The translations under genes were made by a program, and so were the position numbers. Under the pieces are notes generated by a model. The model worked only from the letters and a program-made list of their open reading frames with translations, made no database searches and was not told the origin of the DNA. DNA of 64,000 nucleotides from Candidatus Poribacteria bacterium (GTDB lineage: Bacteria > Poribacteria > WGA-4E > WGA-3G): positions 414,561-478,560 of the forward strand of contig CBDCOJ010000031.1 in NCBI GenBank assembly GCA_965219695.1, written 5' to 3'. This document shows positions 27,494-57,654 of the stretch, one piece after another. Within the stretch, counting starts at the first letter, position 1. Every line of letters begins with the position of its first letter.

Positions 27494-27569
27494 GTTTGAA
27501 TTGTTCAGTGATTTGAAGTTGATCAGGACAAATAGACAAATTTAGCGTTTACATTCAGAGGTATCTCAA

Positions 27570-29273: not shown

Positions 29274-30110
29274 ATGGAGCAGAAATTCACAATCGAACAT
29301 CCCGGCGAAGTAATAGATCACCCCTTTCCGCCGACCCGTCCTGATATCAAGATAGTTGAAAGTTCAGATCGGATTTATGAAGTAGATTGTCAAGAACTAC
29401 AATGGTGGTTCGCTATCCCCAAGATGGGTGAACGTTATATGTGGGCAGAATACGATGGCGAGACACAGAAGTTAGATGCTGTAACAGAGATGATTCCCAC
29501 CGCTCCCGCTATTATTCGAGATATTGATTGCGTTGAAATCCAATTCAATGAATGGCTCGCGAAGGACTGGCCGCCCTCTCCAGATTTAATGTACGTTGCC
29601 ATTGATGAAACTCACACAAGATGGATTTCAGTCGTAAATACAATTGATGACAGGCGCATTTTCAATACAATCGGCGACGAATGGTTTGAAGCCCAATGGG
29701 GACCAGATGCCAAACGCCGCATCGTTGACGATGGACGCTATGAACTTCAACCTGATGGCTCCTACAAACTTACGGACGGACAAGGGTTTGGTGCAGGCAC
29801 GTATGATGTGACGATTGGTGAGAACACCTTCCACTGTCTCCGTGTTTTAGATGCTGATATTACCAAAGAACACGGTGATGAACTCGCGGAAGTTTATATT
29901 GAAGAAGAAACCGGGCGCACGGTCTTCTTTAGACGTTATGACGGTCGATATTTACGTGGTGATCTGCTTAAAAAGTTTCCTAACAATCGTCGTATTGTGA
30001 TAAATGACATCACCTATATACATAGCAACTGCACTGGTTGGTTTCATGATACATTCACATTGGCATCTTTTGGTCAAACTGCTAACGCCACAGATGAAAC
30101 CGAAAAGTAA
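29274..30110 (+). CDS. Hypothetical protein
   Basis: 278 aa ORF with an AGGAGAA RBS. I recognise no motifs. Confidence 0.4.
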   Translation: MEQKFTIEHPGEVIDHPFPPTRPDIKIVESSDRIYEVDCQELQWWFAIPKMGERYMWAEYDGETQKLDAVTEMIPTAPAIIRDIDCVEIQFNEWLAKDWPPSPDLMYVAIDETHTRWISVVNTIDDRRIFNTIGDEWFEAQWGPDAKRRIVDDGRYELQPDGSYKLTDGQGFGAGTYDVTIGENTFHCLRVLDADITKEHGDELAEVYIEEETGRTVFFRRYDGRYLRGDLLKKFPNNRRIVINDITYIHSNCTGWFHDTFTLASFGQTANATDETEK

Positions 30111-30686: not shown

Positions 30687-33600
30687 ATGTTTGAACGCGA
30701 AAAATATTCAATCGCTTTATGCGTATTATACGTTTTATTTTTTACCTTATCTATTTCTCCAACCATCCATGCCCAAGATGAAACAAATGATGCTAAAATC
30801 ATTGAACGTTATAAGCTGATGCTTAGCCGTAAACCCAAAGAGGGCAGCACGTTTGATCGGCTTTATCAGTTTTACCTTGAAGGACCAGGCTTAGATGCTA
30901 TGGTTACCGATTATAAGGCAGAAGCACAAGCGAACCCTAATGATTCTAACGTCCAACTTATCTTGGGGCATCTTTATAAAAGACTTGGGAAAGACACAGA
31001 AGCACTGGCAGCATATCAGCGAGCTGTTGAACTCTCACAGAACAATTACTATCCACACTTCGCTTTGGGAAAGATGTATGCATCACAACGGCAACATGAG
31101 AATGCTATTGTTGAATTGACAAAAGCAGTGCAATTAACAGAACAAACACAATCTACTTCTCCAGAAGAATTAACTGAAATATATAAAGTCCTTGGACGTT
31201 CCTATTTTAGTCGTGACAAGGTAGAAGAAGCAATCAACGCATGGTCAAAAATTGCTGAACTTGACCCAGAAGACATATTTGCACGGATTGAACTTGCTGA
31301 CCTTTTCCATGAACAAAAACTCTATCCACAAGCAATCGCACAACACCAAGCCATTCTTGAAATCAAAAAAGACGATCCGTATCGTAGATGTCTCAGCCTG
31401 CGAGAAATCGGTAAAATACACGAAGACACTGGCACTTATGAGGAAGCACGTAAACACTACGATGAGGCGTTGGCATTAACGGCACCCGGGAATTGGCTCC
31501 GAAAAGACCTACGGCAACGCATCATCGGTATTTACGCCGCTGACGGAAATTGGGAAGGATTAATCACCTACTATCAAAACAAACTTGAAACAACGCCAAA
31601 TGAACCTGAATTGCTCGGTTTACTTGCTTCAGCGTATATTGAAAATCAACAACTTGACGAAAGTATTACGACATATCGAAAAGGATTAGAACTTGCCTCG
31701 ACAGACTCCGGCCTACGTCTCAACCTGATTACTGCACTTCGCAACTCAGAAAAGTTGGAAGCGGCAGCTACTGAATACGAAACTCTCACTGAACAACACC
31801 CCGATGATTTTGGTATTTATAGAGAACTTGGAAAATTGTATGTCCAACTTGCAAATATAGACAAAGCGAAAGCAGTATATCAGAAAATGATTGACCGCGA
31901 TCCACAGAATGCAAGCACACATCTTATCCTTGCCGAGATTTACACTGGACATGAATGGATAGAAGATGCTGTTACTGCATATCAAAATGCAATCTCGCTC
32001 GCGCCTGACAATCTGGATTACATTGAGTATTTCGGAGAGTTTTATTTCCGGCAAGGCAACCGTGAACAGGCAGTTCAAACATGGAATCAAATGGTTGCTG
32101 ACAATAAGAGCAGTGCCGAGAATCATGACCGTTTAGCGCGGTTGTTAGGGGCAAAAAAGTTTCCTACGCAAGCGATTGAAGCAAGCCGAAAAGCAGTAGA
32201 ATTGATGCCTGATGCGTATCGCTATCGTGAAGCATTAGCAAAGCGACTCATGGAGAATCAAGAATACGAAGATGCGCTTACGGAATACGCGGAGGCGGAA
32301 AAACTTGCCCCGAACGCTTTTTTCGCTGAACAGATGGGTGACCAGAGAATTGAAATCTATCGGCGGCAGGGCACACTTTTAGATGAAATTGGAACAGTAG
32401 AAGAGCAGCTGAAAAAACAAACGGACAATGTTGAGGAAACTTTCGCACTGCAGATGCGCCTTGCCAAGATGTACCTCAAATTGGGGAACATTACTTACGG
32501 GCTTGAAGTTCTATTGGAAGCAAAAGCACTTCGTCCGGACCACATCGTTGTAAACAGAAGGCTTGCAGAAGTATATACACAGCAGAATCGCCAAGATGAT
32601 GCAAACGCTATCTACACGCACTTAATTGAGATAGACTCCGCAAATGCACGCGAATACTACGCAAATATCGCGCGTGCCCATCTAAACACCATGGATTTTG
32701 AGACAGCAACGGAAGCGGCAAAACAGGTCGTTGCACATAGTCCACGGAACCCAGAAGGACATCAACTATTAGCACAAATCGCAAAAGGATCCGGCAACTA
32801 TGATACGGCTATTGCCAGTCTCAAGCAAGCAATACGGCTTCGCACAGATGCAACCGATATTCGCACGGAACTTGCGTCAATTTACAAACTTTCAGGAAAT
32901 CTGCGGCAAGCACTTGATCAGTATTGGCAGTGTTGGAAATTGAGCGATAGCGTCAGTGATAAACTTGCCTTTGTCAAACCGCTCTCAGAGTTATATTACG
33001 ACCTCGGGCAACATAACGAGTTTCAAGAAAAACTGAAACAACTTTCTAAAGTTGATGCCTCCAGTGTTGCACCTGTACTTGCACTTGCGAATATCTACGA
33101 GGATATTGGAGATCTGTCTAATGCCAAGTTCCAACTTGCGCGGGCTTTAGATCGGCAACCCGACAATCAAGAACTGCTGGAACAACTTGTAAAAATTAAT
33201 ACGGACCTGGGAAATATAGAAGATGCCTTAAACTACCAACAGCAGCTTGTTAAGGCACACCCTGATGCTGTGCATCAACAAAAACTGGGTGAATTGTTAT
33301 ACGATGCAGGACGTGAACAGGAAGCTGTTCAGGCATGGACAAAGCTGATACACGCTAAAAATCAAACGCTGGAAGCAGAAATTAAACTCTCTAACTTACT
33401 TATAAGACACGGACTACTTGAGAAAGCATTACTTACACTTGATCGCGCTGGAGAAAAGGCAACTGATGCAAAAGACATCTATAAAATAGGGGCGATGTTG
33501 GTAGAAATGAACGAATTAGAACGCGCAGAACCACATTTTCAGGGGATTCTGGAAATGCCTACGCCGCAAACTAAACCAAGTTCAGCAACTATAACGACTA

Positions 33601-42600: not shown

Positions 42601-45600
42601 GTAAAAACAAACTGACACTTGCGTCAAATATACTTAATCGCATTCAAAGGCAGCCTTATGTTTATACAAGCAGACAAGCGTGGATACCTAAGAGTTTTGA
42701 AGACGCACAAGTTGGTGCACTTATTCAGTTGAAAATTATCATGGAAGAAGAGGATAAAATAGACGAGTTTGTTGCGCAATTTGAGAAAAATGCTGACGAG
42801 AATCCGAAAGATGTCCAGACTCTTGAACAATTAGCACAGCTTTATGTCTTGACTGGAAAACGTGACAGATCCGAACAAATTACTGAAAGGTTAATCGCTG
42901 TATCCCCAAACAATCCTGCGTATCAAGGAATGCAGCTGAATCTACTCCAAACACAGCAAAAACTTAATTATGATACGTTAATGAAACAACTTGAACAGAT
43001 GACGTGGTTGACACCAGAAGATCGGCAATGGTATATGGCAGACTTTGCCAGAAGGTTTAGCTACCAAGAACAGAGAGAAGATGCTGAAAAACTTTTAGAC
43101 GATCTTGAAAAAATAAAAGTAATTAACCCGAATGTCTTTACCATGTTAGTTAGTACTTTTGTACAGTTGGGGAGAACAGACACGGCAGAGAAATTTATTG
43201 AGCAATTTTCGGCTACAACGCCCCAATTATCTCAACAACATGTCCGCATCTATCAAACACTTGCTACTACTTATCTCCGCAATGGAAAAGATGACAAAGC
43301 AGCAACAATCTATTGGCAATATTTAGAACGTACGAAACCAAGCGTTACGAATCCACGCCGGACTATGGCACTTAGCACGTCCACTGCTTACTCCTACGGC
43401 GGATACTCCCAGATTCAAGCAAATTTTCCTGCACCCACAACCTATTATACACAAGACCGGTTGCAGTCTCTACAGCAAATTTTTAATCAGTTTTGGATAA
43501 ACGATCAACATCAAGCACTGTATAATGTTTTACAAACACAGATAGATGCCGCTGAAGGAAGAGACCGAATCTATCCTGCTTTAGCGATGTGCTACTGTTA
43601 CTGGTGGGAAAACAAACGCGAAACTGCTTTACAAATACTTTCTGGGCTGCAGCAGGAATTTGATGATGACCTCACACTTAAACTCAATACTGTTCTGGTT
43701 TCAATACAGGCAGGTGAACATAAAGCAGCATTAGAACTTCTTCAGAATCTTGCGGATGCAGACCCAAGGAACCGTCGCCAATATTTTGACCTGACTTTAC
43801 AGGTCGCAGTCCATGTAGGTGATACGCTCATTGTCCGCGATTTGATCACAAAAGTGCTGAACTCTCCGATTAGTGTGCGCGAACTTTTCAATTTTTCACA
43901 AAAACTGCAGCAGAACGGTCTCACGCAATACGCTATAGCTGTCGCCAAGAAAACAGCGACCTTAGCGATGCGTGAACGTGACGCGAACTTCCTCGTGCAA
44001 TTAAGCCAACACTTGGCTCAACTCGGTAGAGGACAAGATGCAGCGCGCATAGCAGCACGCGCTATACAATTCGCAAACCAACAAGACCGCTTTGGACGCA
44101 CGTTACAATCATATTATCTTCAACAAGCATCGCGTCTCGCCAGTCGTTCCACGTCTGTGTCTGGCGGAAACCGTGCAGAAAAGTTAATTGAAGCAGCGGA
44201 AAAAAATCCAAATTCATTTCAAGCTCAGCTGAGATTAGCGTCATACTACGAAGGTAGAAACCAGATACATAAGGCTTCAGCGGCTTATGATGCAGCACTT
44301 GCATTACGCCCCAAAGACAATTCTACCCGCATGCGATATGCACAAATGCTACAACGCAATAGACAAGCAAAAAACGCTGTAAAACAATACAGCATTCTCA
44401 TGAAAGATAAAAAGAATTTCCAAACTATATTTTACAACTACTGGGAAATTGTCCGTACATTTACTGATGCCAGAGAAATAGATAAATTGGTCGCAATCGC
44501 AAAAGAGGCAATTGGGGAAGGCAACCAATATTCTATGGGAAACGAATTCGCAATGAGAGCGGCTCAAGAATGTGTTAGAAACAAATATCCAAAGGCTGCC
44601 GCTGAAATCTATGAAAAAATAATGGAATCTGGTAGAAGGAATGTTTATAGCCAATTAGCAGATGCTTATACAGCAGCGGGTCAACGCGAGAAGGCAATCC
44701 AACTCTTACGCGAGAAACTAAAATCAGAAAAAGCAGAATCAAAGGTTAACATCTTGTTAAAGTTTGCAAAATTTGATGAAACACAAGATGAAATTAAAAC
44801 TTTTGTAACCGAGTACGACGAAGCAATCACTGATGAAAAAGTTGATCCGGCAACACTTTATCTTGCCGCTGTTACGAAGATTGTGACAAATGATTTAGAA
44901 GGCTCTGATCCAATTGTCAATAGACTCCTTGAACAGATTCCATCACAGTCAAGGCTTCAATGGCTAAGTTCATTAGCGAATACATACAGAGAAAAATTAG
45001 ACCTTAATCGCGAAATCCGAATACTTGAAGCTGCAACCCAGAAAGTTGACCCGCAGAATTCTTGGCAACTTTCAGATGTTTATATGAAACTTGGAACGGC
45101 ATATTCTAAAAAGGATGAAAAAGAGAAGGCACAGAATGCTATCAGGAAAATGGGAACACTCCGACTTATGCGGCGTGGTGCACCACAATATTATGAGAAA
45201 GAGAACGTGGCACAAACATATATTAAACACGAATTGTGGGACGAAGCAGAAATCCTGTTAACCGAAGTAATCAACGATCTTTCAGCACAACAGTATTACA
45301 AAGAACGCGCACAAGAACAACTTGTAACAATCCAGCAGAGACGGGATGGTGTTACAGACAACCAACAATCTAACAGAAGGACAGGACGAGTTAATATTGG
45401 GGTGCAACGATCAATGGCACAACAACTCATGCGCCGTAATCAAATCCCTGAAGCCATAAAAGTTTATGAACAAATAGCGAAAGCGATGCCGGAAGACCTT
45501 GAATCCCGCTCTCAACTCGCTAATCTCTATTCACGCCAAAATCAGCATGTAAAGGCTTTAGAAATTTGGAAGGCATTGCTTGAAGCCGATCCTGAAAACA

Positions 45601-48600
45601 CCAAATTCCAAGATGGGATCATAGAGGCATATCAGAACACAGGAAAATCTGAGGAGGCAATAACACTCGCACTGAAATATATTCAGGACGAACCTGGAAA
45701 CGGTCTTCATCACGCTCGTCTCGCGCATCTTTACTACAGCAAGGGTCAACGTAAAGAAGCAATTGCATCCTACAAAAAAGCAATTGAACTCTCACCAGGA
45801 AATGCCGATATTTATGAGAAATTGGCGGTTCTCTATTTGCGTAGTAATCAGCTGGATGATGCAGAGAAAGCATTCAAAGAAGCACTTCAGTATGCTGCGC
45901 AGACACACCAACATCAGAATATCCAACGACAATTGATAGAAATCTATCGTCGTCAAGGTAAACTTGAAGAATACTTAAAAGAAGTGGAAAATCAAGGGGC
46001 ACTTTCCTTTGATATGCTGAAGGAACTTGCACGCAACTATCAGAATCAGGGTAAATTAGATGAAGCCGCTAAGACATATACAAAAGCACTTCAGGTTGCC
46101 CCTCATGAATATGAGGAGCGTAATATTGAACGCCAAATTATAACTATTTATCGAAAGCAAGGTAAATTAGAAGAAAAGTTAAAAGAAGCGGAAAAGAATG
46201 ACACGCTTACTTTTACTATGCAAGTGGAACTTGCTCGGCAATATCGTTCTAAAGGAGAATCGGATAAAGCGATTATTGCCTACAAGAATGCTATCAACAT
46301 GTCATCCAGAGACTATGGAGTAAATAACGTCTATAGCGAATTAATGCAGGAGTACGTCCGACGTGGTGAAGATGATTTAGCAATTGAACTTCACGATTCT
46401 ATATCTCAGCCAAATTCACTCACTACCTCTATCAGACATAACCAATCTGGTTTCGTTGTCACCTTCGGTGGAGATGAAGCACGTAAAATCTTGATTGATG
46501 CCTACAAAAACAAAGGGAAATTGGACCAGCTGCAAGCAATTTTTGATTCTAAACTCGAAAAGGAACCTACAAACCCGATACTTCTTGAGGTAGTAGCCGA
46601 GATTTATCGAAATGCAAAAAACCATGAGAAAAGTGCTGAGGCATACCAAGCACTTTGCAAAGCGGATCCGAGCAATGTTCGCAGTTTTTATTATGCTGCC
46701 GCCGCTCTGAATAAAACTGGAAATTCAGAACTCGCTGAAAAGCTATTAAAACAAGGTGCCACTGCCCTTGAATCCAGCAACCGTCCTAACGAAATGTGGT
46801 ATCTCTGTGCTCTCGGTTCTATCTGTTATGATGCTAAAATGTATACACCTGCGATCAAACTCTTTAAAGGCGCTATTGCTGCCAACACGATGCACAGACA
46901 CGGTGGGCATAGATGGGAAGAGGAGATATTATATGACCTCATCGGAAAAAGTGCACTTGCTACAAAACAGTATGAAGAAGCCATTGATGCATATCAGCAG
47001 TTGAAAAAAATCGCACGTGATAACAGAAAAAAACAAGCTGCCGAAAAAGCGATTGCACAAGCATATATAGATGGAAACCTTCATGCCAAAAAGATTCCTG
47101 AACAGATTAAGAATGTTGAAGACAATCCTAATGATGTAGATGCCCGTCTCGCGCTCGCAGAAACTTATGAATCAAGCGATAAGGTTGAAGAAGCTATTGT
47201 GCAATACCAAAAGATTAGCGAACTTCAACCTGACAAAGCGCAATGGCACAAAAAAATCGGAGATCTCTATCAAAAGCCACGCGAGGCAAAGGATGGTGTT
47301 CAGAAGAATAAAGCGGTGGAGTTAGATGGGAATTATAGTTTTGTTGAAGTCGGTAAAAGCGACACACTAAACACCATAAATCAACATCTTACTGTGTCTG
47401 CCTGGATTAAACCGACTGAATTTCGAAACAGATATACGCCTATAATTTTTAAAGGTGACAGACGAAGTCCAAACATCAGTAATCGGAGTTTCACATTGTG
47501 GCTTCGGGATGATGGGGTTATTCAATTTGCTTCATCGCCTAAGGGACTCGGCGAACGCAAAATTTTTTCCCCACGCGGATCAATTATGCTCAATACATGG
47601 TATCACTTAGCTGGCGTCATTGATACCCAAAGAAATTACATAAAACTTTACATTGACGGTATTGAAGTTGGTCAACAAGATTATAGTGGTGTACCAAATA
47701 TTTATGAAAGTATACTTCCTTTCCGAATTGGTGGTTCACACGAGGAAGAAGTGACCACCCACGCAACCTTTGTTGGACAAATTGACAACGTAAGTGTTTG
47801 GAATATCGCACTGACACCAGAGCAAATTCGTTCTAATATGAAAAAGAAACTGACAGGTAACGAACCTGGCTTAGTAGGACACTGGAATTTTGACAGAAAG
47901 TCGGAAGTATCTATTCCAGATGCATCACCAAATAAGAACGATGGAAAATTAATCGGCAATGCTAAACTAATCGAGTATAATTTTCCTGTTTTTGCCGATG
48001 CCAGCGCGGAACAATTGAAAAAAGCAGCAGCAGCTTACGAAAAAGCTATCTCGTTTGAACCTGACTCGTATGAACTCTATAACTTGGTCGCAAAAATTCA
48101 TACGAAACAAGATGATCCATCCAAAGCCGAAGCCGTATACCGTCAAGCGTTGCAAGCATCTCTCAGACCAACAGAACATGATTCTGCTGTCAAAGCCATC
48201 TTGGAACTTTACGAAGGTAAAGAACATGCTGATAAGCGACTTACTATTCTTGAAGAACTTGGATCAAAATCAGGAAATAGTCCATTTCTACATAAAATGT
48301 TAGGCGATACCTATGTTGAATCGGGTGATACGGATAAGGCAGCATCTGCATATAGAAAATGGTTGGAAATACTTAAAAATGAGCCTAATCAGGGAAAATA
48401 CGCACAAGAATATTTCCAACTTGCTGAGCGGCTTCTTAATCAGAATATCATGCCAGATATTGCGTTGGAACTTGCCAAACAAGCAGCTGGAACCCGATCA
48501 GATTCAACCTACTTTTCTACCTTAGGGCATGCTTATCTGGTTAATGAACAGTATGGCAAAGCATTAGAAAATTTTCAGTCCAGTCTTCAACTTATGAATC

Positions 48601-49331
48601 GTAACGGAAAAGTTAGCGGAGATAGAATAGAACATTTACTAACGCGTATCTCTCAAGTAGGTAAGAATGTAAAAGACAAAGCACTGTACATTGAGATGAT
48701 AGGTAATTTGGTCGATGCAATACCTGACCATCCAGACAACCCGTTAAACGCTAATCTATCATTAGCCGAATTCTGCCATCAACTTGGAATGACAGAAATG
48801 GCAAAAACCTATATTCTGAAAACTGGCTTTTTCCCTGAAACTGCATGGTTGACACTTGGTCCATTTGACAATACGAAGGGAGTCGGCTACAATACCGCTT
48901 ATATTCAGGAAGAAAAAACTCAGATTGATACTGAAGCAAAATACGATGGGGTTACTGGACAAGTTAGTTGGAAACAAGGCACTGATGAAACCTATAACGG
49001 GTTCTTCGATTTTGGTGACGAAGAAAAAATGTACACCGCGTATGCGTGGATAATTTTCACCTCTCCTGAAGAACGAAAAGCACAAATCCGATTCGATAGT
49101 GACGACCAAGGGAAAGTGTGGTTGAACGGCAATAAAGTGTATGCACACAGAAGAACTCGTGGTGCTGTAGTTGACCGCAGAACTATCCCAGTGACACTTA
49201 CTGCTGGACGAAACACTATCCTCGTTAAAGTCTGTAATGAATCACTTCCTTGGGGATTTTATCTGCGGATTACTGATACTGAAGGTAAACCCTTTGATGA
49301 TTTAAAAATCACCGACCAAACACAAAACTAA
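39630..49331 (+). CDS. Giant secreted TPR-repeat protein (paralog P2), colinear with P1 plus an inserted LamG domain
   Basis: Alignable with P1 along its whole length; for example 'KKDDPYRRCLSLREIGKIHEDTG' is identical in both. A LamG domain (about 47290..47960; '...LTVSAWIKPTEFRNRY...WYHLAGVID...FVGQIDNVSVWNIAL') is inserted between the 'IGDLYQK' and 'AAYEKAI' positions that are adjacent in P1. It has the same C-terminal domain. Confidence 0.8.
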   Translation: MFGREKYAIALCVLSLLFSTLLLSPIILAQDGINDAQIIERYKLMLNQKPKEGSTFDRLYQFYLEGDGLESMVTDYQAEAQAKPNDPNIQLILGHIYKRLGKDKDALTAYQRAVELAPDNYYTYFALGQLHVTLRQHEDAIRELTKSVTLSEQSQAVSPEELTAIYKALGQAYFSRDKLDDAIQAWEKISELDPQNVFARIELADLFREKELYPQAIEQHQAIIETKKDDPYRRCLSLREIGKIHEDTGEYDKAREHYDKALDLTAPGNWLRKDLQHRIIAIYSTDANWKDLITYYQGKLETDPNDVELLGLLAAAYIEDQQFDEGTDTYRKGLELAPTDTSLRLSLIAALRNAEKFEAAATEYEALSEQQPDDFGIYRELGKLYLQLEDEDKAKTIYQKMIDRDPQNASTHLTLAEIYTGHEWIEEAVAAYQKAISLAPQNLDYIEYFGEFYFRQANREKAIETWNQMVADGKNTPENYDRLARLLEAKKFPTEAIDASKKAVELMPDAYRFREALAKRLMNDKQYDDALLEYTEAIKLAPNEFFAEQMDDQRIELYRKQGTLVEKVEDAEAQFEKPGLSDTDKFTQLKRLAKMYLKLSNTTYALEILLKAKALQPNDIDVNRETANLYTKQGRRDEAIVIYKHLTEIDSTNAREYHANIAKAYLKGMDFEAAIDAAKQVIAHSPRNPEGHQLLAEIAKQSTKYEEAIDSYKQAIRLRPEAIDIRIELAALYNRSGNSRQAIAQYWRCWELSDNISDKLSFIKPLSEAYYDLGRRGELEEKLKQMAKSNTSGVGAVLGLAQVYRLEGDLSSARFQLARALDRQRENAELLSELVDISSDLGDMQEALTYQQRLVKANPDPVHQQKLGELLFDAGREQEAIQAWSKVLHAKNQTLEAEVKLAKLLIRYGLLEEALFALDNAAEKISGKDAHLALYQIGAKLVEINEAERAIPHFQRILAMPEPATDSTTTVTSNNTTTNVPTSYYGPPGLSKNKLTLASNILNRIQRQPYVYTSRQAWIPKSFEDAQVGALIQLKIIMEEEDKIDEFVAQFEKNADENPKDVQTLEQLAQLYVLTGKRDRSEQITERLIAVSPNNPAYQGMQLNLLQTQQKLNYDTLMKQLEQMTWLTPEDRQWYMADFARRFSYQEQREDAEKLLDDLEKIKVINPNVFTMLVSTFVQLGRTDTAEKFIEQFSATTPQLSQQHVRIYQTLATTYLRNGKDDKAATIYWQYLERTKPSVTNPRRTMALSTSTAYSYGGYSQIQANFPAPTTYYTQDRLQSLQQIFNQFWINDQHQALYNVLQTQIDAAEGRDRIYPALAMCYCYWWENKRETALQILSGLQQEFDDDLTLKLNTVLVSIQAGEHKAALELLQNLADADPRNRRQYFDLTLQVAVHVGDTLIVRDLITKVLNSPISVRELFNFSQKLQQNGLTQYAIAVAKKTATLAMRERDANFLVQLSQHLAQLGRGQDAARIAARAIQFANQQDRFGRTLQSYYLQQASRLASRSTSVSGGNRAEKLIEAAEKNPNSFQAQLRLASYYEGRNQIHKASAAYDAALALRPKDNSTRMRYAQMLQRNRQAKNAVKQYSILMKDKKNFQTIFYNYWEIVRTFTDAREIDKLVAIAKEAIGEGNQYSMGNEFAMRAAQECVRNKYPKAAAEIYEKIMESGRRNVYSQLADAYTAAGQREKAIQLLREKLKSEKAESKVNILLKFAKFDETQDEIKTFVTEYDEAITDEKVDPATLYLAAVTKIVTNDLEGSDPIVNRLLEQIPSQSRLQWLSSLANTYREKLDLNREIRILEAATQKVDPQNSWQLSDVYMKLGTAYSKKDEKEKAQNAIRKMGTLRLMRRGAPQYYEKENVAQTYIKHELWDEAEILLTEVINDLSAQQYYKERAQEQLVTIQQRRDGVTDNQQSNRRTGRVNIGVQRSMAQQLMRRNQIPEAIKVYEQIAKAMPEDLESRSQLANLYSRQNQHVKALEIWKALLEADPENTKFQDGIIEAYQNTGKSEEAITLALKYIQDEPGNGLHHARLAHLYYSKGQRKEAIASYKKAIELSPGNADIYEKLAVLYLRSNQLDDAEKAFKEALQYAAQTHQHQNIQRQLIEIYRRQGKLEEYLKEVENQGALSFDMLKELARNYQNQGKLDEAAKTYTKALQVAPHEYEERNIERQIITIYRKQGKLEEKLKEAEKNDTLTFTMQVELARQYRSKGESDKAIIAYKNAINMSSRDYGVNNVYSELMQEYVRRGEDDLAIELHDSISQPNSLTTSIRHNQSGFVVTFGGDEARKILIDAYKNKGKLDQLQAIFDSKLEKEPTNPILLEVVAEIYRNAKNHEKSAEAYQALCKADPSNVRSFYYAAAALNKTGNSELAEKLLKQGATALESSNRPNEMWYLCALGSICYDAKMYTPAIKLFKGAIAANTMHRHGGHRWEEEILYDLIGKSALATKQYEEAIDAYQQLKKIARDNRKKQAAEKAIAQAYIDGNLHAKKIPEQIKNVEDNPNDVDARLALAETYESSDKVEEAIVQYQKISELQPDKAQWHKKIGDLYQKPREAKDGVQKNKAVELDGNYSFVEVGKSDTLNTINQHLTVSAWIKPTEFRNRYTPIIFKGDRRSPNISNRSFTLWLRDDGVIQFASSPKGLGERKIFSPRGSIMLNTWYHLAGVIDTQRNYIKLYIDGIEVGQQDYSGVPNIYESILPFRIGGSHEEEVTTHATFVGQIDNVSVWNIALTPEQIRSNMKKKLTGNEPGLVGHWNFDRKSEVSIPDASPNKNDGKLIGNAKLIEYNFPVFADASAEQLKKAAAAYEKAISFEPDSYELYNLVAKIHTKQDDPSKAEAVYRQALQASLRPTEHDSAVKAILELYEGKEHADKRLTILEELGSKSGNSPFLHKMLGDTYVESGDTDKAASAYRKWLEILKNEPNQGKYAQEYFQLAERLLNQNIMPDIALELAKQAAGTRSDSTYFSTLGHAYLVNEQYGKALENFQSSLQLMNRNGKVSGDRIEHLLTRISQVGKNVKDKALYIEMIGNLVDAIPDHPDNPLNANLSLAEFCHQLGMTEMAKTYILKTGFFPETAWLTLGPFDNTKGVGYNTAYIQEEKTQIDTEAKYDGVTGQVSWKQGTDETYNGFFDFGDEEKMYTAYAWIIFTSPEERKAQIRFDSDDQGKVWLNGNKVYAHRRTRGAVVDRRTIPVTLTAGRNTILVKVCNESLPWGFYLRITDTEGKPFDDLKITDQTQN

Positions 49332-49445
49332 CTACGACAGACTCCTCTGCTTATTTGCAGATTTCCATCGGTTATAGCACAATTCATTGAACGTACTTTA
49401 GCGATTTAGTGGAATATCTATTCTAAAATTATAGGTATCAGCAAT

Positions 49446-49552
49446 AGTCGGGAATCGGAGTTCCCTCGGACAAAGACGGACCATCTTCTGTAGGCGGTGA
49501 ATGCCTAAATGGCATTCATACCGTTGATTTCGATCTCCGAATCGCGACCTAT
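49446..49552. repeat. Family A/B composite palindromic repeat
   Basis: GTCGGGAATCGGAGTTCCCTC...GGTGAATGCCTAAATGGCATTCATACCGTTGATT...GATCTCCGAATCGCGAC. Confidence 0.75.
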
Positions 49553-49588
49553 ACCCGCAATTTTAGAGTAGACAGAACAGTAGAGGTG

Positions 49589-49626
49589 CGTTTGTAGTCG
49601 CGCAATTCATTGCGCCTCTTACATTT
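49589..49626 (+). repeat. Hairpin repeat family C (GTAGTCGCGCAATTCATTGCGCCTCTTACATTTG)
   Basis: A 7-bp stem GCGCAAT/ATTGCGC with a 2-nt loop, followed by CTCTTACATTT. Copies occur at 17384 (reverse complement) and 57703, with a variant at 52097. Confidence 0.7.
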
Positions 49627-49721
49627 GCGTATGTCACACAGAATGTGTCTACTACTTTTATTCGTTACGTAAATCCTGTTTATTTACCAAATGCTGCTTA
49701 CTTGATTACGGAGGTAATTTT

Positions 49722-51856
49722 ATGTACACGCAACGGAATTTCTTCATAATTGTATGTATCCTACTACTATTCGCCTTTAACTTCAGTTATTCCATCGAAT
49801 TATCAGCACAAGATACCGAGACCGAATTTAATGAATCTATTGAGGATACTGCACTGGATTTAGATGGCAACTTTAGTTATGTTGAAACCGTTGACAGCGA
49901 TGTGTTGAATACACTTAGCGAACAGGTTATGTATCTGTATGGATAAAAGCGACTGATTTCCCCAACAGATATGCTCCTATCGTCTACAAAGGTGACCCAC
50001 GCACCCCTGATATTAGTAATCGAAGTTATGCCATGTTTTTACGGGATGACGGCGCTATTCAATTCGCGTCATCACCAAGGGGATTGGAAGAACAATATAT
50101 CTTTTCACCATCTGAGGCAATTACACTTAACAAATGGCATCACGTCGCAGGTGTCGTTGATACACAAAGAGATTTTATCAAAGTCTTCATCGACGGTTTT
50201 GAAGTTGGTAGGACAAATTTTAGAGGACAGCAGCGTTTTTATGAAAGTTTACTTCCATTACGAATTGGGAATTCACATGAAGATGACAGAGAAACTCACT
50301 CCTCCTTTGTCGGTCAAATTGATGAGGTCAGTATCTGGAACATTGCTTTGACTGAAAATCAGATCCGAACTTGTATGAAAAAGCAGTTGGTCGGAGATGA
50401 AAAAGGCTTAGTGGGTTATTGGAAATTTGATGAACAAACAGATGGTATCGTCTCTGATATCTCATCAAATCAGAACGATGCTTTCTTAATCGGTGGCGTA
50501 AAACTTACCAGATACATTCGTCCTTTCTCAGCCTTTGTCGGCCCAGGACAACTGCAGGAAGCTGCTACCGCTTATGAAAAGGCTCTCACTCGTGATACGA
50601 ATTCTTATGAAGTATACCGTTCACTGGCAGAAATATACATCAGAACAGGACGTCTATCCGATGCCGAAAAGATCTATCTTCGTGCTTTAGAGGCTGATCT
50701 CACTCAATCCGAACATGATGATGCGATTCAAGTCCTCCATAAGTTTTCCGTTGTGAACGGCACAAAAGAGGAGTTTATCAATCTACTTGAAAAACTGAGA
50801 CCGAAAATGGAAGGAAGTGCTATTCTACATCAACTGTTAGGGGATGCTTATAAAAACGCTGGTGAGGAAGAGAAAGCTAAAATCGCCTATTCCCAATGGC
50901 TAAAGATCATAAAAAAAGAAGTTGACAGGAAAAATGATGCATCGACATATTACGATCTTGCTGTAGAACTTCTTGAGAAAAACATGTTTCCTGAAATGGC
51001 TTTGGAATTCGCGTTTAAAGCAACAGAAACACCATCAAGTCCAGATTACATCATTACACTTGTACAAGCATTTCTCGTGAATGAACAGTATGAAAACGCA
51101 TATCAAATCATTGAGAGCATTTTTGATATGATGTTTTTACCTTATGTTGAGCGTGATCTGTTATCGCAGGTTGTCAAAACCGGAAAAAATGTAAAAGACA
51201 AAGAAGGTTATGTTGAAATGTTGAATCAACTGATTGACTCTATGTCTGATAATCTTCGCTCACAGCTAAGTACTACACTTGCATTGGCACAATTTTATAG
51301 AGAAAGTGGCCAAGATGAGAAAGCAAATGCGCTTATCCGAAAAACAGGCTTTATTACCGAAGATGCTTGGATGATTCTTGGTCCATTTGATAACGTCGGA
51401 GGGATTGGATTTAATACAGCGTACATCCCAGAAAACCTACCTAAGATTGACCTCACCGCAAAATACGATGGGATAAATGGAAAGGTGAGTTGGCAAAAAA
51501 GCACAGATGATAATCTATATGGCCATATACAACTTGGCGAAAAAGGCGTAGATTGGCAGGCAGCGTATGCGTTTGCAACTGTCCACTCACCAGATGAACG
51601 GCAAGTAGAATTCCGATTTGACTCCGACGACCAAGGGAAAATCTGGTTAAACGGTATTGAGGTTTTTTCACATACGAAAACCTTTACTGCTGAAATTGAC
51701 AATTACATTATTCCTGTAACCCTCCAACCGGGTAACAACAGTATTCTTGTAAAAGTTTGTGAAGAAACAGGTGGTTGGGGATTTTATCTGCGGATTACTG
51801 ATACTGAAGGCAAACCGTTTGATGATTTAAAAATCACTGACCAAACACAAAACTAA
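49722..51856 (+). CDS. Secreted LamG plus helical module plus conserved C-terminal domain protein (paralog P3); apparent 1-nt frameshift near 49925
   Basis: Signal peptide ('FFIIVCILLLFAFNFSYS'). The LamG start ('ALDLDGNFSYVETVDSDVLNTLSEQ') continues in the +2 frame ('YVSVWIKATDFPNRYAPIVYKGDPRTPDISNRSYAMFLRDDGAIQF'), which joins the 50033..51856 ORF. The listed ORF 49971..50351 is a wrong-frame artifact. Confidence 0.6.
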
Positions 51857-51970
51857 CTACGACAGACTCCTCTACTTATTTGCAGATTTCCAACGGTTAT
51901 AGCACAATTCATTGAACGTACTTTAGCGATTTAGTGAAATATCTATTCTAAAATTATAGGTATTAGTAAT

Positions 51971-52038
51971 AGTCGGGAATCGGAGTTCCCGACTACAAAG
52001 ACGGACCATCTTCTGTAGGAGCGATCTCCGAATCGCAA
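51971..52038. repeat. Family A palindromic repeat
   Basis: GTCGGGAATCGGAGTTCCCGAC tacaaagacggaccatcttct GTAGGAGCGATCTCCGAATCGC. Confidence 0.75.
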
Positions 52039-52216
52039 CAGACAATGATATGCTGACAAAGCACTACGCACTTTGCAGTTTCAAGCGTTCGAAAGTTTGT
52101 AGTAGCACAATTCATTGTGCGTTCTTAGCAATTTTGGTTCAATTCGTTGGGCACTCTAAATTTGCTTGTTCGTCTTGTTTATTTCAATAGTTTTTATTTT
52201 ATTCGGAGGTATTTTA

Positions 52217-54386
52217 ATGTCCATGCAACGAAACTTCCCTATATTTGTATGCGTCCTATTGGTATTCATGTTTAACTTCAGTTATTCTACCTATATCTTC
52301 GCACAAGATTCCGTGAATGAAAAGAAGACTGCCCAGAGTAATAAGGTTAATTCTACCGGATATGATGAGAGAATTGTAGATACTGCGCTTGATCTTGACG
52401 GAAAATCAAGTTACGTAGAAATCGGAGACAGTGAAACTTTAAACAATATTACGGAACAGTTGACGGTGTCAGTGTGGATAAGACCAACAAGTAATCCAAA
52501 TAGATACACAGCGATTTTATCAAAGACCGACGCATGGGTTGACCGTATCACGCATCGAAGTTTCATAATGAATTATAAGGAAGGTGGTTCAATTCAATTT
52601 GCAGCGTCTCCTGTCGGTGAAGGTGAAGCGTCTCTTTATTCCCCAAATGGTATCATCAAACACAACATCTGGACACATATAGCAGGCGTTATTGATGCAG
52701 AAAAGAATTACATGAAACTTTTTGTTAATGGAATTGAAGTCAGCAATAGAGATTTTAAATGGAAAGAAAGTATCTATAGAAGTCAGCTCCCGCTGCGTAT
52801 TGGGTGGTCACATGAGAATAGGACCGCTCAATCTTCATTTGTCGGGCAAATTGACGATGTGCGTATCTGGAACATTGCACGCACTAATGCAGATATCCGA
52901 TCTGATATGATTACTCCACTTAACGGGGATGAACCCGGCTTAGTTGGATATTGGAAATTTAATAAAGTAACAGACGGTATTATCTCGGATATGTCCCCAA
53001 ATCGTAACGATGGTCGATTGGCAGGCAATTCAGAACTGACAGAATACATCCGTCCAATTACTGCCTTGACCAGTAAGGAACAACTGGCAAAAGCAGCAAT
53101 TGCTTATGAAGAGGCACTCTCTCAAGGAACAAACTATTATGAAACGTTCCGTTATCTTGCCGAAATTTATATCAAAACAGAACGTATTTTAGATGCAGAA
53201 AAGGTCTATTTACGCGCATTAAAGGTAGACCTCACGCAAAGCGAACAAAACGATGCAATAAGAGACCTCTGGAGACTTTACACCGAGAGAGATGCAGTAG
53301 ATGAATTCCTTACAATACTTGAAGAACTGAAACCAAGAATGCAAGGAAGTTCTGTTCTGCATGAACTATTAGGTGATGCTTACAAAAACGCTGGTCAGAA
53401 AGAAAAAGCTGAAATTGCCTATACACAGTGGCTTAACATCCGAATGAAGGAAGTAAAAATGCAAGCTCGTGCGTCTGAATATCGCATCCTTGCGGAAGAA
53501 CTACTTAAGAAGAATCTTTTTCCTGATACTGCGTTGGAATTGGCGGAAATTGCATTGGAAAGAATATCTGGCTCAAGATATATGATTACCTGTGCCCATG
53601 CCTTACTCGTAAATGAGTTCTACGATGAGGCTTTTCACCAAATTAGCAGTTTTCTCAATGCTGGGTATTATGAATATACTGAACGTAGCATGTTTGAACG
53701 AATTGTTCAGGCAGGAAAAAATGTCAAAGACAAAGACGGATATATTGTGATGTTAAATCAACTTATTGATAATTTGACCTTTGATCTACCTGCACAATTA
53801 AATACTATCATGGCTTTAGCCCAATTCTATACAGTCAATAACCAGCATGAAAAAGCAGAAGCACTTATCCAAAAAAACAGGATTTATCACCGAAGACGCA
53901 TGGACGATTCTTGGTCCGTTTGACAACGTTGATAGAATCGGCTTTAATACTAAATACATTCCGGAAAACTTGCCGCAGATTGATGCCACCGCAAAATACG
54001 ATGGGAAAAATGGACAAGTGAGTTGGGAAAAATGTCAGGATAATTTTATTGACGGTTATATCCGTATCCAACCCACCGTTAATTGGAGTGTTGCATATTC
54101 ATTCGCAACTGTCCATTCTCCAGATGAACGGGAAGCCGAATTCCGTTTTGATTCCGATGACCAAGGTAAAGTCTGGTTAAACGGTATAGAGATGCATGCA
54201 CACACAAGAACCTATGCTACAGATATTGATAGAGATATTATTCCTGTGACTCTCTCTCCAGGAAAAAATAGTATCCTCATCAAGGTGTGTGAAGAGACCA
54301 GAGGTTCGGGATTTTATCTGCGGATTACCGACACAGATGGAAAACCCTTTGATGATTTAGTATTTTCTATCTCAGAGAGAAATTAA
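52217..54386 (+). CDS. Secreted LamG plus helical module plus conserved C-terminal domain protein (paralog P4); frameshift at A7 run 53869..53875
   Basis: The start is moved to ATG 52217, which has a GGAGGT RBS and is homologous to the P3 start. LamG ('LTVSVWIRPTSNPNRY...FVGQIDDVRIWNIA'). After 'HEKAEALIQK' the homologous sequence 'KTGFITEDAWTILGPFDN...' continues in the frame of ORF 53847..54386. Confidence 0.6.
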
Positions 54387-54908: not shown

Positions 54909-56396
54909 ATGCAGGAAAAATTGATTCTTGAAAAGATTCGTCATGTCCGCCGTCGCTTGAACGTACAAGGATATTTTCAAACACTCGCGACGTTTCTATT
55001 ATTTGGACTTTTGGTGTGTGTCCCAGTAATTATCGTTGATAGCCTCATTACCTCTTTTAATATTCCACCACTTGTATTTCTCGGGATTGCAGGCGGCATT
55101 GCAGTCATCGCTCTGATTGTCCGTCTTATTCGGCCAGTTAATCTACAGGAAGCAGCCCGCGCAATTGATATAGACGCATCACTTAAAGACCGCGTCGTCA
55201 GCGGTCTGGAGCAGATTCAACGCAAAACCGATGAAACGTTGACCACTCTTCAAATCCAAGATACCTCTAAAAGGTTACAAGCAATTCCTATCAAACAGGT
55301 TGCTCGATATACTGTCCCGCGTGAAACTAAATACCTTGCTATTGTTGTCGCTTTTCTCATTACTTTCTCGTTTGTTGAGTTTTTTGCCCCACCTGCCACC
55401 TCAACAGAGATTGACTTCTCGCCAGAAATCGCTGCGGAGGCAGATACGCTGTTAAAAAAGATTGAAGAGGCAAAGAAAGAAGCTGAACTGAGTGAAGATC
55501 AGGAACTTAAAGAAATCTTGAAAGAAATTGAGGAAAGAACACTTAAGTTGAAAAAACCGCAGATTGCTCCAAAGGATGCTCTCGCCAGAATGACCGAATT
55601 GAGTGCGCTCTTGAAAACGAAAATAGACCCGCACAAAATGGCACAACAAGAAGAGTTGATGAAGGGACTCGGACAACAGTTCATTGGTAATCCGATCCTC
55701 GGCGAATTTGGGCAACAGTTGAAACGCGGTGATTACAAAGAAGCAGCTGACAAACTGGACAAAGTGGCAGAAGATGTTCCGAAGTTTGACCAAGAAAAAC
55801 GTCAAAACTTGTCCGATGAACTCAAACGTGCTGGTAAAAGCCTGAAGAATACTGACCTCGACGGTCTTGGAGGCGAATTATCTGGCACAGGGGAATCACT
55901 TGACGGAAACGATGCCGAAGGTGCTCAAAAAGGCCTGCGCGCTTCAGGGAAAAAAATCCGTGATTTTGATCTTCTCAAGAGTCGCAACCAACGGTTGGCA
56001 AAGTTATTGTCCGAATGTGAGGCATGCAAAGCAGGTATCGCAGGTGCTTGCAACAGCAAAGGTATTAACCCTGCTACAGGGCTGACAAAATTGTTATCTA
56101 ACAAACCGGGTCAGGGTATAGGTAATAAAACTTCTGAGACCCAACAAGGTGATCTTACTTCCCTCGATTCTACCCTTAATCTTGAACAGCTCACGGGTGT
56201 CCAAGGCGAAGGTAGTTCTACTGTTCAAACCTCCAAGGCATCGGCGGAAGGTCAAGAATCTGCCCTCAGTTACAAAGATGCTTATATGAAGTATCAGAAA
56301 CTTTCTGAAGATGCACTCACTGAAGAACAGATCCCTCTTGGTTATAAGTTCTATGTGAAACGTTACTTTGAATCGATTAAACCGACTGATGAGTAA
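54909..56396 (+). CDS. Hypothetical membrane-anchored coiled-coil protein
   Basis: 495 aa. Two N-terminal TM helices, a third helix near aa 140, then a long charged coiled-coil-like region. It lies upstream of the MoxR cluster on the same strand. Confidence 0.4.
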   Translation: MQEKLILEKIRHVRRRLNVQGYFQTLATFLLFGLLVCVPVIIVDSLITSFNIPPLVFLGIAGGIAVIALIVRLIRPVNLQEAARAIDIDASLKDRVVSGLEQIQRKTDETLTTLQIQDTSKRLQAIPIKQVARYTVPRETKYLAIVVAFLITFSFVEFFAPPATSTEIDFSPEIAAEADTLLKKIEEAKKEAELSEDQELKEILKEIEERTLKLKKPQIAPKDALARMTELSALLKTKIDPHKMAQQEELMKGLGQQFIGNPILGEFGQQLKRGDYKEAADKLDKVAEDVPKFDQEKRQNLSDELKRAGKSLKNTDLDGLGGELSGTGESLDGNDAEGAQKGLRASGKKIRDFDLLKSRNQRLAKLLSECEACKAGIAGACNSKGINPATGLTKLLSNKPGQGIGNKTSETQQGDLTSLDSTLNLEQLTGVQGEGSSTVQTSKASAEGQESALSYKDAYMKYQKLSEDALTEEQIPLGYKFYVKRYFESIKPTDE

Positions 56397-57469: not shown

Positions 57470-57591
57470 TTCCTTCCTACAGGAGTGAATTAACACTGAA
57501 TGCGCGTAAGGCATTCAGTGAGTTGTAAATACCATTTCTAAAAAATAACTTCTCTTATAGTGGATTCTACAATTAACTGGACATCTGAACG

Positions 57592-57654
57592 GTAGGAGGG
57601 AACTCCGATTCCCGACTATTAGTAGTTGCGTCGCGATTCGGAGATCGCTCCTAC
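57592..57654. repeat. Family A palindromic repeat
   Basis: GTAGGAGGGAACTCCGATTCCCGAC ... GTCGCGATTCGGAGATCGCTCCTAC. Confidence 0.8.

What the first reader, a model, noticed from the sequence alone, without database searches (positions are those of the whole stretch)
30687..54386. 24-kb tandem array of four paralogous secreted proteins built from a shared C-terminal module, with two giant (about 3000 aa) all-TPR members
- Shared C-terminal module. P1 (30687..39515), P2 (39630..49331), P3 (49722..51856) and P4 (52217..54386) are co-oriented and consecutive. All end with the same roughly 500-aa module: a helical TPR-like segment ('AAYEKAI...YEKLGQIYT...') plus a conserved beta-rich domain (see separate finding).
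- Giant versus short members. P1 and P2 add about 2500 aa of continuous TPR repeats behind a signal peptide. P3 and P4 are signal peptide + LamG + module only.
- P1/P2 colinearity. P1 and P2 are colinear paralogs with long identical stretches. Each has a short low-complexity linker at the same position: PYTPYTPYAFTT in P1 and TTTVTSNNTTTNVPTS in P2.
- Possible interpretation. Arrays of secreted giant repeat proteins of this kind (TPR, LamG, HEAT 'eukaryote-like' proteins) are typical of host-associated or symbiotic bacteria. This family and its domain combination do not correspond to anything I can name.
Basis: partly seen in the sequence, partly recalled or inferred. Interest (0 to 1): 0.8.

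Follow-up and report, generated by a model that had tools for sequence, protein, structure and literature searches.

The report
Poribacterial exported TPR proteins, shared lectin-like end
The window comes from a sponge-symbiont (Poribacteria) genome and carries a real, conserved tandem array of two giant and two short exported TPR proteins that all end in an unnamed sugar-binding-like beta-sandwich domain, a domain that also turns up next to MoxR/von-Willebrand ("Bat-like") envelope operons in another phylum.

Summary
The array is real, but only partly as described.

**What is there**
- P1 (2942 aa) and P2 (3233 aa) are intact, colinear paralogs, 57% identical.
- P3 and P4 are each broken by one single-base indel. 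Their orthologs are intact in two sister MAGs that are about 93% identical in DNA.
- P2 also carries a LamG domain. The shared module is about 435 aa, not 500.

**Origin**
- The genome is Candidatus Poribacteria.
- The gene order (278-aa gene, giants, short members, 495-aa membrane protein, MoxR, DUF58, BatA/VWA) recurs across the phylum.

**The C-terminal domain (CTD)**
- It has no Pfam or NCBIfam model.
- It is not phylum-specific: up to 14,251 cluster representatives match its profile, mostly TPR or HEAT proteins.
- In three planctomycete contigs, proteins with tandem copies sit inside MoxR-DUF58-BatA operons.
- In Poribacteria it also ends WD40 proteins, some fused to an ECF sigma domain and a transmembrane helix.

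**Best reading:** exported TPR scaffolds with lectin-like ligand-binding ends, working in the cell envelope and probably with the neighbouring MoxR/vWA system. This is a new variant of a known kind, of moderate interest.

The parts
30687..39515 (+). P1: intact giant (2942 aa). Signal peptide, about 2500 aa of TPR solenoid, then the C-terminal module. No LamG domain.
   Evidence: ORF and translation. TPR Pfam hits in every 500-aa slice. GGAGG 8 nt upstream of the ATG.
39630..49331 (+). P2: intact giant (3233 aa). Signal peptide, TPR solenoid, LamG (aa 2566-2733), then the module.
   Evidence: It is 57% identical and colinear to P1, with extra insertions of 68 aa and 237 aa.
49722..51856 (+). 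P3: short member (about 710 aa if repaired) with signal peptide, LamG and the module. A 1-nt deletion near 49929 interrupts it.
   Evidence: Intact orthologs of 742 and 710 aa exist in L010 and L056. dN/dS is 0.14 and there is no other lesion.
52217..54386 (+). P4: short member (about 722 aa if repaired) with signal peptide, LamG and the module. A 1-nt insertion in an A-run (53865-53871, A7 versus A6) interrupts it.
   Evidence: Intact orthologs of 733 and 719 aa. dN/dS is 0.20-0.24.
39006..39512 (+). C-terminal beta-sandwich domain (CTD) of P1.
48822..49328 (+). CTD of P2.
51347..51853 (+). CTD of P3.
53877..54383 (+). CTD of P4, in the shifted frame.
38202..38996 (+). TPR-like helical half of the shared module in P1. 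The P2 model shows 15 helices in the equivalent segment.
47325..47828 (+). LamG (Laminin_G_3) domain of P2. Equivalent domains lie in P3 (about 49860-50365) and P4 (52397-52897).
   Evidence: Pfam E 3.6e-26, 2e-18 and 8e-26. The fold matches PAPP-A LamG and pentraxins.
33618..33653 (+). Low-complexity linker PYTPYTPYAFTT of P1. The P2 counterpart lies at 42531-42578.
29274..30110 (+). Conserved 278-aa gene of unknown function that precedes the giants in 21 poribacterial loci.
   Evidence: 78-97% identity in the locus scan. No Pfam, NCBIfam or PDB match.
54909..56396 (+). 495-aa membrane and coiled-coil protein that lies between the array and MoxR in 13 poribacterial loci.
56486..60788 (+). MoxR AAA+ ATPase (56486..57469), DUF58 (57793..58680) and a BatA/VWA protein (58719..60788).
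   Evidence: Pfam hits. Conserved position in other loci.
49212..49494 (+). 283-nt stretch, 92% identical to 51737-52019. It covers the 3' ends of P2 and P3 plus the downstream repeat element, and points to local gene conversion.

Best explanation
P1-P4 belong to a poribacterial family of Sec-exported alpha-solenoid (TPR) proteins.

**Shown**
- P1 and P2 are intact. P3 and P4 are orthologs of intact genes but each carries one indel here.
- Each protein has a signal-peptide-like N-terminus.
- Each ends in a conserved module of about seven TPR-like hairpins plus a GH2-N/PA14-like beta-sandwich of about 165 aa. P2-P4 also have a LamG lectin-type domain.
- The locus sits in conserved order directly upstream of a membrane protein and a MoxR-DUF58-BatA(vWA) cluster.
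- The same beta-sandwich occurs in tandem in planctomycete proteins encoded inside MoxR-DUF58-BatA operons.
- It also occurs at the extracytoplasmic end of poribacterial ECF-sigma/TM/WD40 fusion proteins.

**Inferred mechanism**
- After export, the proteins act in the cell envelope or at the surface as long protein-binding scaffolds.
- Their C-terminal beta-sandwich, and LamG where present, dock onto a common ligand. This is most likely a glycan of the bacterium's own envelope or of the sponge matrix.
- The family works together with the adjacent MoxR/vWA (Bat-like) machinery, as TPR components do in other Bat-type operons.
- Tandem duplication, domain gain and loss (LamG, CTD), gene conversion and occasional inactivation diversify the set.
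For: - **Domains and export signals:**
- **Selection:** dN/dS is 0.09-0.28. Of the 125 CTD-bearing reading frames in the fetched loci, 53 are 2000 aa or longer.
- **Synteny in Poribacteria:** the 278-aa gene precedes the giants in 21 of the 79 scanned loci, and the 495-aa gene and MoxR cluster follow the array in 13.
- **Independent link in Planctomycetes:** MoxR-DUF58-BatA-(about 810 aa)-[protein with 2-4 CTD domains] on three contigs. The domains are confirmed at i-E 1e-34 to 1e-36.
- **Extracytoplasmic sensor-like use:** ECF sigma (E 4e-27), TM helix, WD40, then CTD, in six poribacterial loci.
- **Partner domains elsewhere:** non-enzymatic repeats dominate the 55 proteins scanned, with TPR in 30 and HEAT in 7.
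Against: - No ligand, localisation or expression data exist.
- Within one phylum, synteny can reflect inheritance rather than function.
- A terminator-like hairpin (54523-54549) and a promoter-like site (54752) separate P4 from the downstream genes, so co-transcription is not shown.
- Other proteins with CTD-like domains lie in unrelated contexts: one next to GH2-like and fucosidase genes, one with no Bat genes nearby.
- In GH2 enzymes the homologous domain is not an independent lectin.
- PA14 and GH2_N membership is below threshold at sequence level.
- The 495-aa membrane protein has no detectable homolog in the planctomycete operons.
Confidence: 0.45

Rival explanations
1. Host-directed 'eukaryote-like' effectors or adhesins. 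The proteins are released or displayed to bind sponge matrix or cells, for example to anchor in the mesohyl or to evade phagocytosis. They would act independently of the MoxR/vWA genes, whose proximity would be historical.
For: - Every labelled source genome among the best 80 genomic matches is Poribacteria, a phylum best known from sponges (the host reading rests on the MAG names and on general knowledge).
- TPR-rich eukaryote-like proteins with signal peptides are a noted poribacterial trait proposed to mediate host interaction (PMC3909097).
- LamG and PA14-like domains are typical adhesin or lectin modules.
- Copy number varies from one to three giants plus short members, and there are inactivated copies, as expected for host-interface genes.
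Against: - The same CTD is used in planctomycete MoxR-BatA operons from non-sponge metagenomes.
- It is also used in sigma-factor fusion proteins. Both point to a general envelope or sensing role.
- No secretion system beyond Sec is evident at the locus.
- dN/dS values of 0.09-0.28 show no sign of diversifying selection.
Confidence: 0.25
2. The C-terminal beta-sandwich is a sorting or anchoring tag rather than a ligand-binding domain. It would be recognised by an export or attachment machinery, analogous to the T9SS C-terminal domain, which would explain why unrelated passengers (TPR, WD40) share it at the extreme C-terminus.
For: - In every intact poribacterial example inspected, the domain ends the protein, on three different passenger types.
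- Poribacterial repeat proteins were previously reported to carry C-terminal sorting-type domains without a matching secretion system (PMC3909097).
Against: - NCBIfam returned no family at all for the CTD, so no sorting-domain model matches it.
- Outside Poribacteria the domain is often internal, N-terminal or in 2-7 tandem copies.
- At about 165 aa, with a GH2-N/PA14 fold, it is unlike known sorting domains.
- A CTD-less subfamily of about 1085 aa persists with its signal peptide intact.
Confidence: 0.08
3. The array is an assembly artefact or decaying junk: pseudo-tandem copies of one gene, or a locus undergoing pseudogenisation.
For: - P3 and P4 are frameshifted.
- An SSF transporter gene elsewhere in the window is also split.
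- IS elements and broken family members occur in related genomes.
Against: - The copies are only 64-79% identical in DNA.
- The same order is found in two independent assemblies.
- P1 and P2 are uninterrupted open reading frames of about 3000 codons.
- The orthologs are under purifying selection.
- Each broken copy has exactly one lesion.
Confidence: 0.03

Closest known systems
Eukaryote-like TPR repeat proteins of sponge symbionts (Poribacteria; Kamke et al. 2014, PMC3909097)
   Same: - Same phylum.
- TPR is the most abundant repeat class there, and many of those proteins have signal peptides.
- A role in host interaction has been proposed for them.
   Different: That work counts Pfam domains only. 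It does not describe this family, its giant size, the shared C-terminal beta-sandwich, the LamG combination or the MoxR-adjacent locus.
Bat-type ('aerotolerance') operons: MoxR AAA+, DUF58, BatA/BatB vWA proteins plus TPR proteins BatC/BatE (own knowledge of Bacteroides and Leptospira operons)
   Same: - TPR proteins are encoded beside MoxR-DUF58-BatA/VWA genes.
- The complex is predicted to be associated with the cell envelope.
   Different: - BatC and BatE are small, roughly 200-300 aa, and lack LamG or a beta-sandwich.
- The only BatC model hit here scores 15 bits against a cut-off of 175.
- The array lies upstream of MoxR, and co-transcription is not shown.
N-terminal 'sugar-binding' domain of GH2 glycosidases (galactose-binding domain-like fold), e.g. 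3gm8 and E. coli LacZ 3muz
   Same: - It is also the best, though non-significant, profile match, with the RVxLRFxS...VWLNG...GxN..LVKVxN core aligned.
   Different: - No catalytic TIM barrel follows the domain.
- Sequence identity is 13-23%.
- Scores fall below the Pfam threshold.
PA14 lectin domains (MpIBP 6x95, Lap adhesin 6m8m, Flo5, Epa) and the PA14 sensor of the anti-sigma factor RsgI3 (6qe7)
   Same: - Weak PA14 Pfam hits over the SDDxxKxWLNG region in homologs.
- The domain is used at the outer end of a sigma-factor-linked membrane protein, as in RsgI.
   Different: - Scores are just under the PA14 gathering threshold (23.6 bits against 24).
- Calcium-binding and sugar-binding residues were not verified.
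- The sigma domain is fused to the same polypeptide rather than being a separate partner.

Membership tests
TPR superfamily (Pfam TPR_1/2/8/14/16/19 and related) | Repeated 34-residue helix-turn-helix motifs detected above the curated thresholds. | tested here: met
   P1 and P2 score 230-318 bits on many TPR models. All five N-terminal 500-aa slices are positive. The helical part of the module matches consensus TPR crystal structures.
LamG / Concanavalin-A-like lectin (Pfam Laminin_G_3, PF13385) | An HMM match above the gathering score, and a beta-sandwich fold. | tested here: met
   P2 scores 92.6 bits, P4 91.4 and the P3 fragment 67.4, against a cut-off of 27.6. The fold matches PAPP-A LamG and pentraxins. 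P1 has no such domain.
GH2 N-terminal sugar-binding domain (galactose-binding domain-like) | The jelly-roll beta-sandwich fold of this superfamily. | tested here: met
   [not shown]
GH2 N-terminal sugar-binding domain (galactose-binding domain-like) | Significant sequence-family membership (a Pfam model above threshold), and association with a GH2 catalytic domain. | tested here: not met
   No Pfam hit above threshold; only RhaB_D2 at 18.8 bits against 27. The profile against PDB gives E 0.09-0.2. No glycosidase domain is present in P1-P4.
PA14 domain (PF07691) | An HMM match above the gathering score, and the calcium/sugar-binding loop motif. | tested here: inconclusive
   [not shown]
Bat-type operon TPR components (BatC/BatE) | Homology to the BatC/BatE models, and a position inside the MoxR-DUF58-BatA operon. 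| tested here: not met
   The NCBIfam TPR_BatC_Lepto model scores 15.4 bits against a cut-off of 175. The genes lie upstream of MoxR, with hairpin and promoter-like signals in between. Neighbourhood conservation is met.
T9SS / Por C-terminal sorting domain (TIGR04183) | A match to the sorting-domain model at the extreme C-terminus. | tested here: not met
   The NCBIfam scan of the CTD returned no families.
Sec-exported proteins | An N-terminal signal peptide with a charged n-region, a hydrophobic core and an AxA-type cleavage site. | tested here: inconclusive
   All four start with about 29 residues of this form ending in HA|QD, LA|QD, SA|QD or FA|QD. This was judged by eye. No signal-peptide predictor was available.

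The most novel reading that the evidence does not exclude
The unnamed CTD beta-sandwich defines a large, overlooked domain family that is a recurrent extracytoplasmic partner of MoxR-DUF58-BatA (vWA) envelope systems across phyla. In Poribacteria it would be a common ligand-sensing or docking module shared by giant TPR scaffolds, LamG-TPR proteins and one-polypeptide ECF-sigma/TM/WD40 sensors. That would give the long-enigmatic Bat-type operons a candidate substrate or ligand-recognition component. The single-base indels in P3 and P4, one of them in an A-run, could then be on/off switching of individual members.
Probability: 0.25. Interest if true: 0.65.

Novelty: new variant of a known kind. 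Interest (0 to 1): 0.45.

Why it matters
Poribacteria are among the most widespread uncultivated sponge symbionts. Their repeat-protein expansions are thought to mediate life inside the host, but no family has been dissected.

This locus gives a defined, phylum-wide family: a conserved position, clear domain logic and high-confidence structural models. It also flags an unmodelled beta-sandwich domain with thousands of relatives.

That domain's repeated association with MoxR/vWA operons in a second phylum, and with a membrane-spanning sigma factor, makes two things testable. One is what Bat-type envelope systems act on. The other is what signal these symbionts sense. If the link is only historical, the finding reduces to a well-characterised but ordinary lineage-specific expansion.

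Tried and rejected
1. **Programmed frameshift at the P4 A-run.** The run forms A_AAA_AAC, but the downstream frame needs a +1 shift, not -1, and the orthologs simply have A6. I dropped this reading.
2. **Fusion link between the 495-aa membrane protein and the N-terminus of the planctomycete CTD proteins.** BLAST gives E 13, Pfam finds nothing, and a profile of 13 orthologs finds nothing in the planctomycete operons. Rejected.
3. **A conserved recoding site that detaches the CTD.** About 30 clusters in other Poribacteria are about 1085 aa long and end at the same point. Several genomes have no CTD downstream at all. Where a CTD follows, two frame changes separate it. I read this as a CTD-less derivative subfamily, not recoding.
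4. **Structured RNAs.** The Rfam scan of the window found nothing at gathering thresholds.
5. **Promoter and terminator scans.** Counts are not above shuffled controls in the array, so they say little about operon structure.
6. **AlphaFold-database fold library.** It was unavailable.
7. **Literature searches.** Searches for this family, or for a Poribacteria-MoxR link, found nothing specific.
8. **Caveat on the count of 14,251.** The profile includes about 50 helical positions that give weak TPR matches, so the count at E<=1e-3 is an upper bound. The 692 hits at E<=1e-30 and the listed top hits cover the beta domain proper.
Full report

The region holds two very long ORFs on the + strand, 30654..39515 and 39627..49331. 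Two gene-sized stretches follow, and each is split into two ORFs.

Each also begins with a signal-peptide-like 29-mer ending in A|QD.

- **P1 and P2.** P1 is 2942 aa and P2 is 3233 aa. They are colinear and 57% identical overall. The first 600 aa are 71-77% identical, and the longest identical run is 23 aa. The low-complexity linkers sit at homologous positions, aa 978 and 968.
- **P2-specific insertions.** P2 carries two insertions relative to P1: 68 aa of extra helices, and a 237-aa stretch that is a LamG domain (Pfam Laminin_G_3, 92.6 bits). So only P1 lacks LamG.
- **TPR content.** Every 500-aa slice of P1's first 2500 residues hits TPR models. The slice at aa 1001-1500 is the weakest.
- **Shared module.** All four genes end in a shared module of about 435 aa. 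It is 46-56% identical between copies.

**2. P3 and P4 are broken here but intact in relatives.**

- P3 changes frame after codon 67.
- P4 changes frame 31 codons before the GPFDN motif that opens the beta domain.
- Orthologous loci in two other poribacterial MAGs, IRC4_bin_14 (L010) and RHO2_bin_17 (L056), are 92-95% identical in DNA. They carry intact genes of 742/710 aa and 733/719 aa.
- Alignment shows that the window lacks one C in GTTA[C]TGT (P3) and has A7 instead of A6 (P4).
- After repairing one base each, no other stop or shift remains. dN/dS against the intact orthologs is 0.14-0.24, and 0.09-0.28 between the two orthologs.

The lesions are therefore either very recent or consensus errors.

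Only one other gene in the 64-kb window looks split, an SSF transporter. Two of three breaks thus fall in about 7% of the sequence. By my own post-hoc binomial estimate, that has a chance of about 1%.

The A-run resembles a -1 slippery heptamer, but the required shift is +1. I do not invoke programmed frameshifting.

**3. It is not a mis-assembly.**

Paralogous segments are 64-79% identical in DNA. The one exception is a 283-nt stretch at 92% that spans the 3' ends of P2 and P3 and the downstream repeat element. It looks like local gene conversion. The same order of genes is present in two independent assemblies.

**4. Origin and distribution.**

- A pattern and tblastn scan of one genome per GTDB species found 227 stretches encoding the C-terminal domain (CTD). 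The best 80 come from Candidatus/uncultured Poribacteria MAGs, plus two MAGs labelled only 'uncultured bacterium'. Several genomes contribute more than one stretch.
- NCBI calls these proteins 'tetratricopeptide repeat protein' or 'hypothetical protein'.
- Scanning 79 fetched loci with window proteins shows a recurrent order:
  - a 278-aa gene (window 29274..30110, 78-97% identical, in 21 loci);
  - one to three giants;
  - zero to three short LamG members;
  - a 495-aa membrane/coiled-coil protein (54909..56396, in 13 loci);
  - MoxR, then DUF58, then BatA/VWA.
- Of the 125 CTD-bearing reading frames in these loci, 53 are 2000 aa or longer. The giants are therefore widely maintained.

**5. 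What the C-terminal domain is.**

- **No named family.** Pfam gives no hit above threshold; the best is RhaB_D2 at 18.8 bits, and some homologs reach about 24 bits on PA14. NCBIfam gives none.
- **Fold.** An AlphaFold2 model built on 38 sequences is confident (pLDDT 91, pTM 0.89). It is an all-beta sandwich.
  - CBM6 and CBM35 score about 8.
- **Sequence profile.** A profile search of PDB sequences again puts GH2 N-terminal domains first. The match is not significant (E 0.09-0.2), but the core RVxLRFxS...VWLNG...GxN.LVKVxN is aligned.
- **Whole C-terminal region.** A second model covers the last 675 aa of P2 (pLDDT 87.7). It shows LamG (residues 1-225), 15 helices (235-505) and the CTD (510-675). 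LamG resembles PAPP-A LamG and pentraxins. The helices resemble consensus TPR.

**6. The domain is widespread and has telling partners.**

A profile search of 1.84 billion cluster representatives found 14,251 proteins at E<=1e-3, 8,592 at E<=1e-10 and 692 at E<=1e-30. The lowest-stringency number is an upper bound, because the profile includes about 50 helical positions.

Among 55 top hits, the partner domains are TPR (30) and HEAT (7). No catalytic family appears among the 25 most frequent.

- **Planctomycetes.** One group (Gemmataceae and related) carries two to four tandem CTD-like domains behind an N-terminal membrane segment. On three contigs these proteins are encoded in the order MoxR, DUF58, BatA/VWA, a protein of about 810 aa, then the CTD protein. 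The domains were confirmed locally at i-E 1e-34 to 1e-36.
- **Poribacteria.** The same CTD, together with its two or three preceding helices, also terminates WD40 proteins of 1000-1250 aa. Six of these begin with an ECF sigma domain (35% identical to the window's ECF sigma, E 4e-27) followed by a transmembrane helix. That places the CTD on the extracytoplasmic side, in a sensor-like position.
- **Counter-examples.** A HEAT protein with a weak CTD-like match lies beside GH2-like and fucosidase genes. An fn3-containing protein has no Bat genes nearby.

**7. Interpretation.**

The best-supported reading is a family of exported TPR scaffolds. Their conserved C-terminal beta-sandwich, plus LamG where present, binds a common extracytoplasmic ligand, most plausibly a glycan. 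The family probably acts with the adjacent MoxR/vWA system. Two arguments support this:

- The link to MoxR/vWA rests on conserved order in Poribacteria and on an independent in-operon association of the same domain in Planctomycetes.
- The ligand-binding role rests on fold similarity and on the sigma-fusion architecture.

None of this is experimental. Co-transcription with the MoxR cluster is not shown: a hairpin and a promoter-like site lie between P4 and the next gene.

The main rival is the classical 'eukaryote-like effector/adhesin' view, in which the MoxR neighbourhood is incidental. A sorting-tag role for the CTD is unlikely, for three reasons:

- The domain is internal or tandem in other phyla.
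- NCBIfam matched no family to it, so no sorting-domain model fits.
- A CTD-less subfamily persists.

**8. Comparison with what is known.**

TPR enrichment in Poribacteria is published at the level of domain counts (PMC3909097). I found no description of this family, of its C-terminal domain, or of a Poribacteria-MoxR connection.

- It is a member of the TPR and LamG superfamilies.
- It shares the GH2-N/PA14 fold but fails sequence-level membership in those families.
- It resembles Bat-operon TPR components by position but not by homology.

**9. Verdict.**

It is a lineage-specific expansion of a known kind, secreted repeat proteins of a symbiont. Its distinctive part is an unmodelled but widespread C-terminal domain whose genomic associations suggest a testable function. 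I rate the interest as moderate (0.45) and the novelty as a new variant of a known kind.

Noticed in passing
window 6215-6264, 8837-8855, 15010-15052, 30166-30230, 49447-49465, 51972-52036, 54662-54680, 57598-57651: A dispersed intergenic repeat, REP- or MITE-like, built from two 19-mers: GCGATTCGGAGATCGCTCC (7 sites) and GTCGGGAATCGGAGTTCCC (6 sites). Only 0.01-0.02 sites are expected by chance. The 19-mers usually lie 5-30 nt apart and occur in both orientations. Copies flank P1 and follow P2, P3, P4 and MoxR.
   Followed up: partly
window 23037..23534 and 23540..24619: A sodium:solute symporter (SSF) gene is split into two ORFs in different frames. It is the only other visibly broken gene in the window.
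   Followed up: partly
L001 6685-10543, L078, L080-L082 (other Poribacteria): A derived subfamily of about 1085 aa (signal peptide, TPR, LamG, helices) forms about 30 protein clusters that all stop at the same point ('...IPPEYSS...'), just before the CTD. In some genomes an intact 180-aa CTD ORF still follows 40 nt downstream, after two frame changes. In others nothing follows.
   Followed up: partly
L069 6779-10543 (also L058, L064, L067, L071): Single polypeptides that combine an ECF sigma factor, one transmembrane helix, WD40 propellers and the same C-terminal beta-sandwich. This is a one-component transmembrane sigma factor with a lectin-like outer end.
   Followed up: partly
window 15543..17327: A Ro60/TROVE plus vWA gene (bacterial Rsr-like). 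No Y RNA or any other Rfam family was detected anywhere in the window at gathering thresholds.
   Followed up: partly
window 19381..20646: A DDE (IS4-type) transposase gene. Related poribacterial loci carry many IS copies, some of them inside or beside broken family members (L001, L002, L003).
   Followed up: no
window 26873..28970: An ECF sigma factor is followed by a 466-aa protein with a weak LiaG/DUF4097-like beta-helix match. The pair lies about 3 kb upstream of P1, and its relation to the array is unknown.
   Followed up: no
window 60860..62071: An AAA_14/DUF4143 ATPase gene sits directly after the BatA/VWA gene, inside the Bat-like cluster. A DUF4159 gene lies on the opposite strand at 63319..63993.
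   Followed up: no
window 7288..8727, 9008..9955, 14087..14947, 17584..18441: Other genes of poribacterial type: two HEAT-repeat proteins (one with PDZ), a small LamG protein and a PhyH dioxygenase.
   Followed up: no
L003 15911-20517: A related poribacterial genome encodes a proteasome, a Pup-ligase-like gene and a UBact gene cluster a few kb from a CTD fragment.
   Followed up: no
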